Shown: positions 12,124-22,384, counted from the stretch's first letter. The stretch: 64,000 bases of DNA from Schizosaccharomyces osmophilus (GCF_027921745.1 NC_079238.1:2356001-2420000); one strand, 5' to 3'. Numbers and translations are program-made. The notes: generated by a model from the letters alone, not told the origin.

Positions 12124-13158
12124 TCATCCAAATAAACCGGCGTCCTGTCCTCTGTTTATGGGTTGCTTGTAATCCAGTTGGTCAGAAATAAGTGCATAAC
12201 CATGGGTCAAGCCATCGATTAGTTTCTTGTTTTCTTCCTCAAGCTTTCTAGTATACTTCAAAGAACTCTCCAATTCATCCGTTAATGATTCCAGATCCTC
12301 TACGGACACGTATCTTTTCTGATTTAACAGTTCTTTAACAAGACGAATCTGATTTTGCAATCTTGCATCCAAAACAACCGCATTTTGTTCAAAGCATTTT
12401 ATAAGCGAATCCGGGTATGATTTATAAAGGGGACGAAGCAAAGCTTCTAACGACGAAACTGTATCATTCAAACACCTTTGGAGCTTCTGATTTTGGTTCT
12501 TAATATTCTGGAAAAACAAGGAACTTCCTTCATAGTCTTCATGTTTTGAAACTTTTTGTAGCTCACTTTCTTCATTGTCATATGTCACTGGTAAAATAGG
12601 AGCGTTTACATGCGATTTTTGTGGTTCCTTTATAATCAAAGAACAATACGAGTTATTTCCTTTCCGTCGCTTTATTGAATCATAGTTTCCTCGCAATGAT
12701 TCCATCTGCTGTTCACGTTTCTTGAGTGACATTGACAGTTCTGCTTTCATAGCGGCTTCTATCTGGCTCTTTTTGTCCAAGGAATTCATAGTATGTTTAT
12801 TTTCTTTTTTTAAAAATTTGTTCTCCTTTTCCAACATATTAATTCTATCCTCTTGGACCTGTCTCTCCTTTAAACTTTGTTCCAAGTTTCGTTGCAATTG
12901 TTTTGATGATTCCAGATTCTTTCTAAATTCAATAGAATCAGTTTGAATCCTTTCTAACAACTTTTCTTTTTCTTCAACATCAACTTCGTTTCTTCTCAGT
13001 AATTGATACAAAACGTTCACAACCCGACATTTGTCTTTAACATCGTCTGAAAACCGTACTTTCTCGTTTTGCAGAATCCCATTGTCTTTTAGTTTATAAT
13101 TAACATATTGAATTGATTCCTTTAAATTCGTGGAATCGCAAAATACATTAGTAGCCAT
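12124..13158 (-). CDS. msd1: Microtubule-anchoring coiled-coil protein Msd1 (SSX2IP/ADIP-like), 344 aa
   Basis: First ATG of the frame is at 13158 (MATNVF); N-terminal 'IQYVNYKL...G...VVNVLYQLL' plus a long coiled coil; synteny. Confidence 0.78.
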   Translation of the reverse strand: MATNVFCDSTNLKESIQYVNYKLKDNGILQNEKVRFSDDVKDKCRVVNVLYQLLRRNEVDVEEKEKLLERIQTDSIEFRKNLESSKQLQRNLEQSLKERQVQEDRINMLEKENKFLKKENKHTMNSLDKKSQIEAAMKAELSMSLKKREQQMESLRGNYDSIKRRKGNNSYCSLIIKEPQKSHVNAPILPVTYDNEESELQKVSKHEDYEGSSLFFQNIKNQNQKLQRCLNDTVSSLEALLRPLYKSYPDSLIKCFEQNAVVLDARLQNQIRLVKELLNQKRYVSVEDLESLTDELESSLKYTRKLEEENKKLIDGLTHGYALISDQLDYKQPINRGQDAGLFG

Positions 13159-13307
13159 TTCTTGTATGAAAGCGTCGTTTACATTGCATAAAAATATGAG
13201 AACGAAATATCGCTCCAACAATACAGCAAAAGAAGAGACAAGCCCTCGACCTGAGAGAATGATATAAAATAGGGTTTCATTATAAACTATTAAACTGTCA
13301 TGAATTC

Positions 13308-15822
13308 TTATAAACATTCTAGTATCGTTTTCAGGATGTAAACATTCGCTGCGAAAAAGAATAAACCAGATAGCCATAATTCAATAAATACAGAGTTTCC
13401 AAGCATTTCTAGACGATACGCATTTAAAAGCCACATCGCCTGACTAGCTATCCACAGAATTAGGCAAACCAACCCTTTTTTGCTGATAAGTTTTGAATTT
13501 GGCAAAATTAAGGGCAGAAATATTAGATACCAGAGGAAATACTAAAAAATTGTTAGCCAAAAAAATAACAGTAGAACTTACTTGACTCGTGCAAACTTTG
13601 TTGAATGTTACAAAAGCAAATGTCTGTGCGAAAAGTGTACCAGCAAGAGTTTGTTTGGAATATACAGCAGCAATCAAAACACAAAGTAAAATTTGTGGAA
13701 AAAATGCAAGGAATGAAGAGAGTTTCTGCTTAGAGGCTGACTCAAAATAAAGACTCAAATGATGAGCTGAAAAGTTATGCCTATGATCTGTTCGTCCAAG
13801 ATGATATATATATGTGTGCTCTAGAAAAGGCCTTCCATAAATGATATACATGAAAAGATTACACAAAGTGAAGGCTAAAAGGGACCCAATTAATACCTTG
13901 AACTGGTTGACAGAAAAAGAACCGGCAACTCTTTTCAACAGTGGTCCTTGCTTCCATGGGTTTGCATAGTAAAATAAAAATGCGATTCCATAAATAAATG
14001 GATAAATTTTAAAATGTACCGAAAAGCCAAGTAAGAACCCTGCTAACCACACACGTTTTCGTTCTAAGAGTAAGATGAGTGCAACACTTAAGACTCCTAA
14101 AATTGCTTCACAGTTTCCTCTTGTACTAATTACAGCGACAAGTGGATTTAGTATCCAAAAGGAAACATATAGCAGTGATTTACCTAAAGACAGTTTACGA
14201 TTCAGAATTTTAATAATAATCCAACCAGCCAGTATGTCACAAAGGGAAAACATATACTTTCCCCAAGATGGAAACCCATATTGAGTTGGCAACAAGATAA
14301 TAGCCAAAAGAGGAGTATATCGATATGTATCCCGCATATAAGGTGACTCACCCAGAGAAACATACCTTGCTGCATCAGTGAAGACAAAATAGTCAACATC
14401 GGTGTATTTGAGTGTAGATTTACTATCATGCCAATTTCCATAATTGATAAGAATAACCCGTATGATGAAACCAACTATCAGAAGACAAGTCGACTTAGAT
14501 GGACAGTAAGCATGGAAGTAATAGGATACAGAAAATCGTTGGAAAATAATATCCTTTAAAAATCTTATATTCTGATGCCGGCGAACACTTGATGGCAGAG
14601 AGAAAATGTAATAAAACAGGGCTTCTTTCACCTCCGGTGTTAAAGCATCTACAGTGCTTACTTTAGAAGAAGAAGAAAGTGTTTCTTGAGACGTTTGAGA
14701 AGGAGATGAACGTAGAAGCGCACATTGGTGGGCAATGGAATATAAGTGTTTTCTGTCATCTTCTGTAATGTCTGCTTTCGACCATTCAAGAAGAGAATCG
14801 AGAATTCCCCTTGCAAAAAAAGATGAAGCGTTTTTATGGTCAAAACTTTTCATAGAAGTTACTCCTTTCATTAACTTCGCTTCTGTTTCAGGTGATATAT
14901 GGGAATTCTTTAGATCATTGTCTATTGCTTTCGGATTCGTCTCCCTAACATATATGCTGATATTTTCCTTTACTGATTTCCCATGTAGGAATTTCAATAG
15001 CCAAGAGCATAAAAAAGACAATCGCAGTTGTAGAAAGGGCTCCAAATGAATAGAAGCAGCGTATTCATAATCGAGAGAAAATTCTTGACAAATGTTTTTT
15101 GTACTTTCAAATAAAGCATGGCGGGAATTTATAACAAGTTTCTCTTCATCATTTTGCTTCAAGATATCAGAAATTTCAAACGCAGTAACGCTACACAACC
15201 CTTGAAGCAAATTCAATGAAAAGCTAGCCAGAGGAAAGTAGTTGGATTTCAGAAAAGGGGAGGATATAAGTACGGACTTTGATTTTTGCATCTGCACAAA
15301 CACAGCATAAATTGAACATAAGGTTATGCATTTGAGTGCAGCAAACTTGGGCGCGGTAATACGGAAACAAAGAAGGAAACCAAGTAAAGAGCACAGGAAA
15401 AATACAATACTTCCCCAAGGCAGAATTAAAGGATTATATGCGGAAGCACATACAGCAGTACATGCCAATCCAATAGTCAAGTAAACAAGCCGTGTAGTGG
15501 AAACATATTTTTGTGGAGTATAATAATTCTTCCGTTTTATAAAAACGTAGACAGACGAAGTAATTAATAAGTGTCCAAACTGACTAAAATATTCTTCCAC
15601 TGGCACCTGAGCAATCGTAAATAGTATTTTTCGAGGTACGATTGATATCAATTTCAAATGAAGGAAAAAGGAAATTATAGCCGAGTAGTAGAAAGAAAGG
15701 CACAAACATGTGAACCATTGTTGCCTCCATTTCTTGAACAACCAGCTTGGTCGAAGCACAAGCGCGATTCCAAGTAGAGGAAACAAATAATAATAAACAA
15801 AGAACTTTAGATATGTTTCCAT
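13308..15822 (-). CDS. gpi14: GPI mannosyltransferase I (PIG-M) with a long N-terminal extension; join(15822..13582,13541..13308), 824 aa
   Basis: KYTDVDY.VF.DAA, YRYTPLLA, STRGN, HFKIYP, R.DHRHNFS and FNKVCTSQ|YFLWY PIG-M motifs; 40-nt GTAAGT..GCTAAC..TAG intron. Confidence 0.93.
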
Positions 15823-16419: not shown

Positions 16420-16923
16420 TTATTTTAAAGCACCAGAAAGGGTTTCCAAAACTCCTACGCGAATCGAAGCTTCAGCAGCAACCTTTTCATCCGAGGAGGC
16501 AGCTTCAGCTCTGTACTTTTCGAGCAATTGAGCAACGACAGAAGATGAAAAGTCCTCCAACTTAAAAGCTTCGGGAGAAGTTACAGAAAGCTCATTCGAG
16601 GGTTGTTGGACAGCAAAACCACCAGAAACGAAGTATTTGGAAACAGCGTTGGATTCATCCGTGATCTGAATAACACCAGGACGTAAGCATTGAACCATGG
16701 GTACGTGATCTTTCAAAACACCCATCTCACCATCCTCAGTGGGAAGATCAACCTGAGTTACAGGTACTTTGTCAAAGACGGTACGGTAGGGCAAAGCCAT
16801 CGAAAGAATCAACTTTTCATTTTTTTGAGCAGCTTGAGCATATCCACGACGAGGAATTGCTGCAAATTTAAAAATACCAGGAGAAAATGGAACCCGACGG
16901 AAAGCGTTCATAAAAGGTTGCAT
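16420..16923 (-). CDS. atp16: Mitochondrial F1-ATP synthase delta subunit
   Basis: Presequence, then QVDLPTEDGEMGVLKDHVP...L.PGV...YFVSGGFA. Confidence 0.95.
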   Translation of the reverse strand: MQPFMNAFRRVPFSPGIFKFAAIPRRGYAQAAQKNEKLILSMALPYRTVFDKVPVTQVDLPTEDGEMGVLKDHVPMVQCLRPGVIQITDESNAVSKYFVSGGFAVQQPSNELSVTSPEAFKLEDFSSSVVAQLLEKYRAEAASSDEKVAAEASIRVGVLETLSGALK

Positions 16924-20806: not shown

Positions 20807-22384
20807 TTAACTGTCTAGGTCGCGTCTCATAAGAAAGGCATCAGAATCACCGTCAGCAAATCGCTTATAAAGCTTTGGTACACGCTCAATTATCTTGAAA
20901 CCACGCCGAGTATACCAATCAACACTATCTTCATTAGAACATCGAACGTGTAAAGTAATTGCGTCCAAAGCTAATCTGTGGGCTGAACGATTTGCAAAAT
21001 CCAAAAGTAACGAACCAATTCCTAAATTTCTGTAAGGGGCTAGAACTGAAAATGTAGCTATGTAAAGTAATTCGTCTCTATTTTTAACGCAACTCAGGCC
21101 TCCTACAACTTTGTTTTCAAAGAGAGCCACGCGTGAAAGTTCATTGTCTTTTAGGATGTTCTTATAGAATGTTTCGCTATAATTTGTATTCAAAACAACT
21201 TGATTCAGCCGTTTAAATGAGTTAATGTTTTCATTCGTTAACTCAACGAGTGAATACCTTGAAATTGGTTTATTAGAAGCTACGGAATCAACAGTAGTAT
21301 CTGAAGAATCTGGTTGTCCAATTTCTTTATCCTGTTTTTCCTGTGGTAAAATATCATCACTAACCAAGTTTTCCTTTGAAATCGGTTGGAACCTATTAAC
21401 CTCCTTCGGTTGGATGCCATGGGTTTCTTCCTGTTTTCTTTTCTTCAAAAGTAAGTTCATTTGTTTATCAATGGAAAACAATCCCTTGGTATCTGCACCG
21501 CATTGTACACAAGTAGGAGTCTTTCTGTAGCGTTCTACGGCACAATTTTCACAAAAGTGATGCTTGCAAACCGTTACAATCGGGTCTTTGTAGTCCTTTT
21601 TGCAAATCAAACAAACAAATGGGATTTCCTCTTCTTTTTCGTTTTTTGGAACGCCGTCCACATTTTTTATACCCTTACGGAATTTGGATTGTGCTTCATT
21701 CCATTCTTGATCTAATTGCCAGCCAGCTTTGTAGTCTTCTCTCATGTGCAGAAACTTACAAGTATCACCATAACCGCAAAACCCTGTCAACTTGTAGTCT
21801 TTACAGACGTCTGGTTGATAATCTATCACTGTAATCGTACGGATTGCAGCCGACGATGGCGACGGACGGACTGGTCCAGTCTGTGCTTTCTTGCTTATCG
21901 GTTCCTTTTTAGGTAAAAATTTTGAATAGTCGTTTTGCGATTGAAACAAGTCTGATGACAATGTACATTGCTTCTTAAAATGAGCACTCTCTTCATCATT
22001 TGAAGATTCGTTTGGGATGATAACTGTGGATGTGTTCATCTCATCGCCATGCACATTCAAGTTGGCAGAGTATTCTACGTTTATGTCTTTTGATATAGAA
22101 GAATTTTGATCTTCCTTCTTCTTGTAATGATCCGAAGATGCATCAGGAACCATTCGGGCTTGCTTTTTTTGCTGGGATAGTAAGTAGTCCCTCGTAGATC
22201 GAATGTCGTCCACTTCGTCCTCATCTTCATCTGAATGATCTGATTTATTTAGAGTATTTGATTCAACATTTGGCTTTTTTCGCTTCAAACCTTCTCTGTC
22301 CCGACCTTTCCTCTTTTGTTGAAATATGGGAACAACCCCATTGTTCTGTTTAGTCTGTTCTTTATAATTATCGCTTTCCACCAT
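20807..22384 (-). CDS. cwf24: Spliceosomal CCCH/RING protein Cwc24/RNF113A fused to a C-terminal GNAT acetyltransferase
   Basis: DYQPDVCKDYKLTGFCGYGDTCKFLHMREDYK (CCCH); CLIC...C.HHFC..C...C..C (RING); GNAT motif A PYRNLGIG. Confidence 0.93.
   Translation of the reverse strand: MVESDNYKEQTKQNNGVVPIFQQKRKGRDREGLKRKKPNVESNTLNKSDHSDEDEDEVDDIRSTRDYLLSQQKKQARMVPDASSDHYKKKEDQNSSISKDINVEYSANLNVHGDEMNTSTVIIPNESSNDEESAHFKKQCTLSSDLFQSQNDYSKFLPKKEPISKKAQTGPVRPSPSSAAIRTITVIDYQPDVCKDYKLTGFCGYGDTCKFLHMREDYKAGWQLDQEWNEAQSKFRKGIKNVDGVPKNEKEEEIPFVCLICKKDYKDPIVTVCKHHFCENCAVERYRKTPTCVQCGADTKGLFSIDKQMNLLLKKRKQEETHGIQPKEVNRFQPISKENLVSDDILPQEKQDKEIGQPDSSDTTVDSVASNKPISRYSLVELTNENINSFKRLNQVVLNTNYSETFYKNILKDNELSRVALFENKVVGGLSCVKNRDELLYIATFSVLAPYRNLGIGSLLLDFANRSAHRLALDAITLHVRCSNEDSVDWYTRRGFKIIERVPKLYKRFADGDSDAFLMRRDLDS

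What the first reader, a model, noticed from the sequence alone, without database searches (positions are those of the whole stretch)
14500..15822. Gpi14 N-terminal extension resembles a dead lycopene-cyclase/phytoene-synthase (CrtYB/CarRP/Al-2) fused to PIG-M
Seen: ~440 aa precede the PIG-M domain in one uninterrupted frame, with no Met near the PIG-M start. Known: PIG-M/Gpi14 is normally ~400 aa. Recognised from recalled sequences: METYLKFFVYYYLFPLLG...LRP and IAQVPVEEYF...LIT..VY match the first cyclase repeat of fungal CrtYB/CarRP (M..Y..vH.yytlP.lg...rP; vPlEEy.FF). RLVYLT...WGSIVFFLCSLLGFL...CITLCSIYAVFV...YFPL matches the second repeat with PxEE lost. ESTKNICQEFSLDYEYAASI...LRLSFLCSW aligns with the phytoene-synthase start (L.k.SkSFy.As..F...vR.dL..LY.FCR..DD) but lacks the DDxxD motif. 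Inference: a carotenoid-pathway relic, in a lineage not known to make carotenoids, kept as a non-catalytic membrane or isoprenoid-binding module on an essential dolichol-P-mannose-using enzyme, or released by proteolysis.
Basis: partly seen in the sequence, partly recalled or inferred. Interest (0 to 1): 0.85.

Follow-up and report, generated by a model that had tools for sequence, protein, structure and literature searches.

The report
Carotenoid enzyme fossil fused to Gpi14
The fission-yeast enzyme Gpi14, which builds the GPI anchors that hold proteins on the cell surface, starts with 440 extra residues whose first half matches the pigment-making enzyme CrtYB and whose second half is predicted to keep its fold; six related fungi carry CrtYB fused to Gpi14 with its active-site motifs intact, whereas fission yeasts lost nearly all of those motifs and likely keep the remnant as a folded, non-catalytic part of an essential protein.

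Summary
The minus-strand gene (15822-13308, one intron) is Schizosaccharomyces osmophilus gpi14, 824 aa, with 438 residues before PIG-M; the three other fission yeasts found have the extension too. Its first 197 residues align to unfused fungal CrtYB (HHalign 95.7%; 0 of 60 shuffles for residues 1-100). The next 210 residues show no sequence signal, but a model folded from fission-yeast sequences alone returns isoprenoid-synthase folds in 49 of the top 50 rows (Z 5.4-7.4, modest). Decisively, intact CrtYB-PIG-M fusions exist in Taphrina, Protomyces, Savitreella, two Saitoella and Neolecta, most sharing the junction motif. The fusion is therefore old in Taphrinomycotina. Fission yeasts kept one PxEE motif, lost the second PxEE, the conserved Asp positions and both Asp-rich synthase motifs, shed over 100 residues, and evolve the remnant 3-8 times faster than PIG-M. 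Origin: about 0.95. Present role is untested: most likely a non-catalytic structural leader (0.5); lipid sensing, separate products and residual catalysis remain open. No paper describing the fusion was found in six searches; one Saitoella annotation splits the gene.

The parts
15523..15822 (-). Start codon and degenerate lycopene-cyclase repeat 1 (aa 1-100)
   Evidence: HHalign 94.1% vs unfused CrtYB, 0 of 60 shuffles; ESM Atlas 27 of 30 hits Lycopene_cyc for aa 1-235
15592..15606 (-). V-P-x-E-E motif (aa 73-77), the only cyclase motif kept; V73, P74, E76, E77 invariant in four fission yeasts
15148..15522 (-). Degenerate cyclase repeat 2 (aa 101-225); PxEE and the Asp of D(S/T)xA lost
   Evidence: collinear but weak: 1.3% and 6.6%, 1 and 0 of 60 shuffles; motifs
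14509..15147 (-). Phytoene-synthase remnant (aa 226-438), 213 aa against 318-350 in intact fusions; both Asp-rich motifs lost
   Evidence: position and lengths; fold from fission-yeast-only model; not detectable by sequence
14500..14508 (-). Y-x-P junction (aa 439-441), at the place of the terminal Tyr of CrtYB, 35 residues before TDxDY
   Evidence: 15 of 19 fused proteins, 0 of 174 unfused PIG-M (motif chosen after seeing the alignment)
13582..14499 (-). PIG-M/Gpi14 domain, exon 1 part (aa 442-747)
   Evidence: PF05007 E 9e-59; Z 38 to C. glabrata Gpi14 9wno
14392..14400 (-). DxD motif of PIG-M (D475-V-D477)
   Evidence: role from PMC12653191 passages
13542..13581 (-). 40-nt intron
   Evidence: restores the database protein's tail
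13308..13541 (-). Exon 2 (aa 748-824 and stop)

Best explanation
Fission-yeast Gpi14 is encoded in one frame with a 438-residue leader that descends from a carotenoid enzyme (CrtYB) likely fused to PIG-M once in an early Taphrinomycotina ancestor, and the leader is likely kept as a folded, non-catalytic structural part of an essential ER enzyme. Shown: the single frame, the cyclase homology, the intact fusions in relatives, the shared junction, the lost motifs, the faster rate. Inferred: (1) the ancestral protein joined a six-helix membrane cyclase, a cytosolic phytoene synthase and PIG-M, which fits because Gpi14's N terminus is cytoplasmic; (2) when fission yeasts lost pigment, the CrtYB half could not go as a gene because it held the promoter, start codon and first membrane helices of an essential gene; (3) it decayed at its active sites but kept helices and fold because PIG-M's insertion or stability had come to depend on a well-folded leader. 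Origin about 0.95; this present role about 0.5.
For: Intact fusions: 9 of 120 listed PIG-M hits carry PF00494; the 12 best of 41 hits to the Protomyces CrtYB half all carry PF05007; Neolecta added. Of 253 PIG-M rows, 15 have over 200 aa before the DxD; 14 are these Taphrinomycotina-type proteins. Cyclase homology vs unfused CrtYB 95.5-95.7%, vs PIG-M control profiles 0.1%. Fold: 49 of 50 top rows class I isoprenoid synthases from a model with no CrtYB in its alignment. Decay: of columns conserved in intact fusions S. osmophilus keeps 17 of 69 (cyclase), 7 of 70 (synthase), 124 of 144 (PIG-M). Rate against PIG-M: 2.7-3.7 and 5.9-7.6 in fission yeasts, 0.7-1.3 and 0.9-1.9 in intact fusions. One S. 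pombe RNA-seq transcription unit starts 74 nt before the ATG and covers leader and PIG-M with one intron (PMC4770384 supplement row, against ORF coordinates). gpi14 is essential with no paralogue in S. pombe (PMC3866870 supplement row). Gpi14 N terminus is cytoplasmic (PMC12653191 passage).
Against: No experiment shows a full-length protein; S. pombe Gpi14 has no protein value in the Marguerat table. Three of four fission yeasts have a Met 36-60 residues before TDxDY, so an exit route existed, which weakens 'trapped' and hints either at separate products or at a real function. Invariant E76/E77 and 11 lineage-specific invariant residues in the synthase remnant are more than a passive leader needs. 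The synthase part has no sequence signal, the model is low confidence (pLDDT 57.5), best Z is 7.4, Foldseek gave no hit at E<=0.001 and no decoy model was run. PIG-M trees put fused forms as a grade, not a clade (one clade not rejected, p-AU 0.086). One Saitoella annotation has two genes.
Confidence: 0.5

Rival explanations
1. The remnant was repurposed as a lipid or isoprenoid sensor: the six-helix part and the dead synthase pocket bind a prenyl diphosphate, dolichol or sterol and tune Gpi14 level or activity to the mevalonate supply.
For: In the mixed-alignment model aa 26-225 match Insig folds (4xu4 Z 10.1, rmsd 3.8, 157 aligned; 6m49 Z 9.1). PxEE of repeat 1 is invariant over a split dated at about 207 million years (date from PMC10085805 passage). 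New invariant E253, E261, R267, D303, W347, E400. The isoprenoid-synthase fold is predicted to persist. Gpi14 uses Dol-P-Man.
Against: The Insig match comes from a model built with intact cyclases, at pLDDT mostly 40-70, and Z under 13 for helical bundles can be a common arrangement. The remnant evolves fast (60-78% identity to S. octosporus against a 90.5% genome mean). The metal-binding motifs that hold diphosphates are gone. Most fungi run Gpi14 without a leader.
Confidence: 0.2
2. The frame is one gene but the products are separate: an internal start or a cleavage frees PIG-M, and the leader is a by-product or works alone.
For: Met near the PIG-M start in S. pombe, S. octosporus, S. japonicus and Saitoella. 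A JGI-type model splits Saitoella into 553 + 431 aa. A protease site between cyclase and synthase was proposed for Phycomyces CarRA (PMC3139582 passages).
Against: No Met lies between residue 324 and the DxD in S. osmophilus, nor within 95 residues before TDxDY in 4 of 14 intact fusions listed. The split Saitoella model leaves out 98 residues that hold conserved synthase C-terminal motifs, and a second Saitoella species is annotated fused. One transcription unit in S. pombe. The same paper says the cleavage site is not conserved and favours a single polypeptide.
Confidence: 0.15
3. Cyclase repeat 1 keeps a protonating activity and acts on some other membrane isoprenoid.
For: E76 and E77 are invariant. 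CarRP E78K gives lycopene with undetectable beta-carotene (PMC8803881 passage); that E78 is the second Glu of this PxEE is recalled, and fits PLEE at 74-77 in a Mucorales CrtYB.
Against: The TTPWDN block, the second PxEE and D(S/T)xA are lost; only 7 of 69 conserved cyclase columns survive in all four species. The S. japonicus model lacks the first helix. No carotenoid substrate is known in fission yeasts (recalled).
Confidence: 0.1
4. Only the cyclase half, or none of it, descends from CrtYB; aa 226-438 are an unrelated helical insert.
For: All sequence tests of aa 226-438 failed; Foldseek gave nothing significant.
Against: It lies exactly between cyclase and PIG-M, ends in the shared Y-x-P junction and its independent model picks the predicted fold class.
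Confidence: 0.05

Closest known systems
PIG-M / Gpi14, GPI mannosyltransferase I (PF05007; C. glabrata structure 9wno)
   Same: C-terminal 385 aa, DxD, fold (Z 38), 40% identity to 9wno; essential single copy in S. pombe.
   Different: Preceded by 438 residues; usual PIG-M has tens of residues before the DxD.
Fungal bifunctional lycopene cyclase/phytoene synthase (CrtYB, CarRP, CarRA, Al-2; TIGR03462 + PF00494)
   Same: Order cyclase repeat, cyclase repeat, synthase; PxEE of repeat 1; terminal Tyr; predicted folds.
   Different: No family model scores; second PxEE, WD, both Asp-rich motifs lost; synthase over 100 aa shorter; continues into PIG-M.
Intact CrtYB-PIG-M fusions of Taphrina, Protomyces, Savitreella, Saitoella, Neolecta (database records named either 'GPI mannosyltransferase 1' or 'bifunctional lycopene cyclase/phytoene synthase')
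   Same: Same architecture and, in most, the same junction; the direct ancestral state.
   Different: They keep the catalytic motifs and T. deformans makes carotenoids; some models lack part of repeat 1.
Insig / MvINS lipid-binding six-helix proteins
   Same: Fold match of aa 26-225 in one model (Z 9-10).
   Different: 6-7% identity; match probably reflects the cyclase family as a whole; no binding shown.

Membership tests
PIG-M/Gpi14 | PF05007 above its cut-off | tested here: met
   199.9 bits against 23.4
PIG-M/Gpi14 | Luminal DxD motif after the first helix | tested here: met
   TDVDY at 474-478; role per PMC12653191
PIG-M/Gpi14 | GT-C fold of Gpi14 | tested here: met
   9wno Z 38.0, rmsd 3.2, 373 aligned; Foldseek E 2e-16
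PIG-M/Gpi14 | [quoted passage not shown] | not testable with these tools
   No assay; essentiality in S. pombe is consistent
CrtYB/CarRP/Al-2 | Homology to the two-repeat CrtY-type cyclase | tested here: met
   HHalign 95.7% vs 21 unfused CrtYB, controls 0.1-1.4%, ESM Atlas
CrtYB/CarRP/Al-2 | TIGR03462 / PF18916 / PF00494 scores at cut-off | tested here: not met
   No hit for the window protein or three orthologues; intact fusions score
CrtYB/CarRP/Al-2 | PxEE in both cyclase repeats and the conserved Asp of each | tested here: not met
   Repeat 1 PxEE kept; repeat 2 PxEE, WD and D(S/T)xA lost in all four species
CrtYB/CarRP/Al-2 | Two Asp-rich Mg-binding motifs of the synthase | tested here: not met
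   Absent at both aligned places; S. japonicus keeps two Asp near the first
CrtYB/CarRP/Al-2 | Class I isoprenoid-synthase fold after the cyclase | tested here: met
   49 of top 50 rows, Z 5.4-7.4, rmsd about 4-6.6; modest Z, pLDDT 57.5, no decoy model; family of a few rows (PbSS, Ord1, YisP, MoeN5) recalled
CrtYB/CarRP/Al-2 | Phytoene synthesis and lycopene cyclisation | not testable with these tools
   Predicted absent from the motifs
Insig family | Six-helix Insig fold with lipid pocket | tested here: inconclusive
   Z 10.1 and 9.1 from a mixed-alignment model; no Pfam INSIG hit listed

The most novel reading that the evidence does not exclude
Early-branching ascomycetes run carotenoid synthesis and the first GPI mannosylation on one three-enzyme ER protein, and fission yeasts turned the pigment half into an Insig-like isoprenoid sensor with a dead synthase pocket that sets GPI-anchor output by the mevalonate and dolichol supply. 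The PIG-M tree even allows the fusion to be ancestral to all ascomycetes and split again in budding yeasts and moulds.
Probability: 0.2. Interest if true: 0.9.

Novelty: new variant of a known kind. Interest (0 to 1): 0.72.

Why it matters
An essential gene of the model yeast S. pombe is half unexplained; this names that half and makes it testable by one deletion and a few point mutants. It is molecular evidence that fission-yeast ancestors carried a carotenoid enzyme, and a clean natural series from intact enzyme to pseudoenzyme. It also shows an undescribed-looking join of pigment and GPI pathways across at least four classes of Taphrinomycotina, which affects how crtYB can be regulated or knocked out in Taphrina, Protomyces and Saitoella, and gives a rare genomic character for the base of the ascomycete tree.

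Tried and rejected
Pfam, NCBIfam and PDB sequence scans of the leader: nothing significant. Sequence tests of aa 226-438 against synthase profiles: HHalign, own semi-global profile alignment with 116 natural decoys, hmmsearch with shuffles; all negative, the best being S. japonicus at the expected place, 20 of 300 shuffles. ESM Atlas on aa 225-440: no usable hit. Foldseek on the small model: no hit at E<=0.001. Internal repeat in the fission-yeast cyclase part: no longer detectable (0.14% vs 95% in unfused CrtYB). The mixed-alignment model's synthase match (4hd1 Z 8.6) was set aside as circular. No RNA holder was listed for the window, so no reads were laid. No whole genome is held, so phytoene desaturase loss and dN/dS were not tested. 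80 metagenome PIG-M loci: no fusion and no neighbouring crtYB; two hold a squalene-synthase-like frame on the other strand. Pneumocystis, Archaeorhizomyces, Novakomyces and S. cryophilus were not identified in any list. Papers: PMC2628649 passages gave nothing useful; CAGE supplement of PMC6393241 unreadable; one proteome paper not held; no gpi14 row in PMC6057490 supplements; locus tag not in PMC3648899 supplements, so TAPDE_005571 = CCG84997.1 is unproven. Three look-ups of earlier findings were empty. Rejected: gene-merging artefact in this window (no stop, no branch-point/acceptor pattern in the leader).

Full report
Observation. The window holds a minus-strand frame of 792 codons from ATG 15822. 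A 40-nt intron at 13581-13542 and a second exon to 13308 complete an 824-aa protein. A database protein 100% identical over residues 1-440 is S. osmophilus pig-M. Pfam PIG-M covers residues 565-749 and a solved Gpi14 aligns from residue 447, leaving about 440 residues in front. Met codons lie at 1, 178, 318, 324 and next 496. The orthologues of S. octosporus (824 aa), S. pombe (815) and S. japonicus (781) have the same leader.

The cyclase half. Pfam, NCBIfam and the PDB sequence search do not name the leader. A profile of the four fission-yeast leaders aligns to 21 unfused CrtYB proteins, none labelled Taphrinomycotina, with probability 95.7%, E 8.7e-9, residues 1-197 on 1-209. Control pairs with PIG-M profiles give 0.1-1.4%. 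By segment, residues 1-100 score 94% with 0 of 60 column shuffles as high; residues 101-225 score only 1.3% (1 of 60) against unfused and 6.6% (0 of 60) against fused CrtYB, in the expected register. Independently the ESM Atlas gave 27 of 30 hits in Lycopene_cyc clusters for residues 1-235 (score 0.90, 214 of 256 features); the tool notes that shuffled proteins reach 0.9 in 4 to 10 of 100 cases.

The synthase half. Every sequence test of residues 226-438 failed: 9 and 13 of 60 shuffles, 73-210 of 300, 17-236 of 300, no Atlas hit. I then folded residues 222-445 from an alignment of the four fission-yeast sequences only (pLDDT 57.5, pTM 0.57). Against 48,161 solved chains, 49 of the 50 best rows are terpene synthases, prenyltransferases or squalene/phytoene-type synthases, among them HpnC (4hd1, Z 6.2, rmsd 5.0, 156 aligned) and CrtM (2zco, Z 6.0); best Z 7.4, none at 8; the exception is Chlamydia CT622. 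The family of a few rows is recalled. These Z values alone are modest, the rows are not independent, Foldseek found nothing at E<=0.001 and I had no decoy model; the weight comes from the fold class having been named beforehand.

The intact fusion. Searching with the PIG-M part among proteins of 453-1442 aa, 9 of the 120 listed hits (of 860) also carry PF00494. Searching with the CrtYB part of the Protomyces protein, the 12 best of 41 hits all carry PIG-M as well and the rest are unfused CrtYB or bacterial-type proteins. A profile search of 1.84 billion representatives added one more. Named carriers are Taphrina deformans, Protomyces lactucae-debilis, Savitreella phatthalungensis, Saitoella complicata, Saitoella coloradoensis and Neolecta irregularis; nine further clusters are unnamed. 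They score with PF00494 and, where scanned, TIGR03462 and keep PxEE twice and both Asp-rich motifs; the Taphrina deformans, Savitreella and Neolecta models lack part or all of repeat 1. T. deformans makes carotenoids and its genome paper lists one cyclase/synthase gene without mention of GPI (PMC3648899, passages); that this is the fused record is my inference. Of 253 PIG-M rows held, 15 have over 200 residues before the DxD: 14 belong to this set and one is an Aspergillus model with zinc-cluster domains. A Y-x-P at the place of CrtYB's last Tyr lies 26-40 residues before TDxDY in 15 of 19 fused proteins, all four fission yeasts included, and in 0 of 174 unfused PIG-M; I chose the motif after seeing the alignment; the misses are T. 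deformans, Neolecta and the two Saitoella, which have it further up. This argues for one fusion event.

Results against. One annotation of S. complicata splits the locus into 553 and 431 aa; it leaves out 98 residues with conserved synthase motifs, so I read it as a prediction artefact, but Saitoella does have a Met at the PIG-M start. In a 32-row PIG-M tree the 12 fused rows form a grade below 13 unfused ascomycete-like rows (96/87 and 97/84 support); holding them together is not rejected (p-AU 0.086). So one origin in Taphrinomycotina, or an older one with later fission, both remain. The rows were a subset I picked, many unnamed. In a 27-row CrtYB tree the 8 fused rows group with one unnamed, probably exon-cut protein. 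Pneumocystis, Archaeorhizomyces and Novakomyces were not seen.

Decay. Fission yeasts keep V-P-x-E-E of repeat 1 and lose TTPWDN, D(S/T)xA, the second PxEE and both Asp-rich motifs; the synthase position holds 200-213 residues against 318-350. S. osmophilus keeps 17 of 69 and 7 of 70 columns conserved in ten intact fusions, against 124 of 144 in PIG-M. Identity to S. octosporus is 78, 65 and 60% for the three leader parts and 90% for PIG-M; the genome mean is 90.52% (PMC10085805, passage). Distances relative to PIG-M are 2.7-3.7 (cyclase) and 5.9-7.6 (synthase) in fission yeasts, 0.7-1.3 and 0.9-1.9 in intact fusions (the largest distances are saturated). Yet the leader has lasted across a split dated 207 million years (same paper), with 14 of 180 and 14 of 186 columns invariant in all four species, 11 of the latter differing from the intact consensus. 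dN/dS could not be computed.

One product? In S. pombe a single RNA-seq unit runs 3047906-3050425 with one intron at 3050194 (PMC4770384, supplement row); the ORF is 3047980-3050477 and the mRNA is at 0.77 copies per cell with no protein value (PMC3482660, supplement rows). The unit thus covers leader and PIG-M, though it cannot exclude a minor internal start and ends 52 nt short of the stop. gpi14 is essential and has no paralogue (PMC3866870, supplement row). Gpi14 has 12 helices with a cytoplasmic N terminus (PMC12653191, passages); CarRP is predicted to have six helices (PMC8803881, passages), another source says seven, and phytoene synthase is taken as cytosolic (PMC6350077, passages). 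A cytosolic synthase leading into Gpi14 therefore fits.

Mechanism. I commit to a non-catalytic, folded leader on which PIG-M insertion or stability depends (0.5). Rivals: isoprenoid or lipid sensor (0.2; Insig-like match Z 10.1 in the mixed model, and the invariant charges); separate products (0.15); residual cyclase-type catalysis (0.1; CarRP E78K abolishes beta-carotene, and its place in this PxEE is recalled); synthase part unrelated (0.05). That fission yeasts make no carotenoids is recalled; and 81 gave no direct statement.

Novelty. Both halves are known families; the join is visible in database domain lists, where records are named for one half or the other. I found no description in the held library: searches for gpi14/Schizosaccharomyces/lycopene cyclase (33 papers with two of three terms, 20 listed, none on this by title), the S. 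pombe gene id (0), Taphrinomycotina with phytoene synthase (2), PIG-M with phytoene synthase and fusion (0), gpi14 with pombe (5, listings only), fission yeast with pig-M and GPI (0). Subscription journals and unread supplements, notably the CAGE tables of PMC6393241, may bear on this. Verdict: a new variant of known kinds, real, with a well-supported origin and an open function; interest 0.72.

Noticed in passing
window 20807-22384, minus strand: 525-aa frame joining CCCH and RING zinc fingers to a GNAT acetyltransferase domain; recalled as the known fission-yeast Cwf24 fusion.
   Followed up: partly
window 12124-13377, minus strand: ADIP-domain coiled-coil frame (recalled as Msd1) whose first ATG overlaps gpi14 exon 2 by 70 nt, so its true start is probably further down.
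   Followed up: no
window 16420-16923, minus strand: ATP synthase delta subunit gene directly upstream of gpi14, about 600 nt from its ATG.
   Followed up: no
proteins P0270 and P0163 (unnamed ENA contigs): A CrtYB sister to the Neolecta one, ending in variable tails like an intron read-through, and a long-branch unfused PIG-M; possibly a further Taphrinomycotina lineage, fused state unknown.
   Followed up: partly
L066 and L074, minus strand: A squalene-synthase-like frame (motifs recalled as Erg9) lies within about 6 kb of a PIG-M gene in an unnamed fungus.
   Followed up: partly
model meab92cf04baf, aa 26-225 (window 15148-15747): The CrtY-type cyclase region matches Insig folds (Z 10.1 and 9.1); may hold for the whole fungal cyclase family.
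   Followed up: no
protein P0005 (S. japonicus): Its model starts about 38 residues later than the others, without the first helix, and its synthase remnant is the closest to intact ones (18-20% identity).
   Followed up: no
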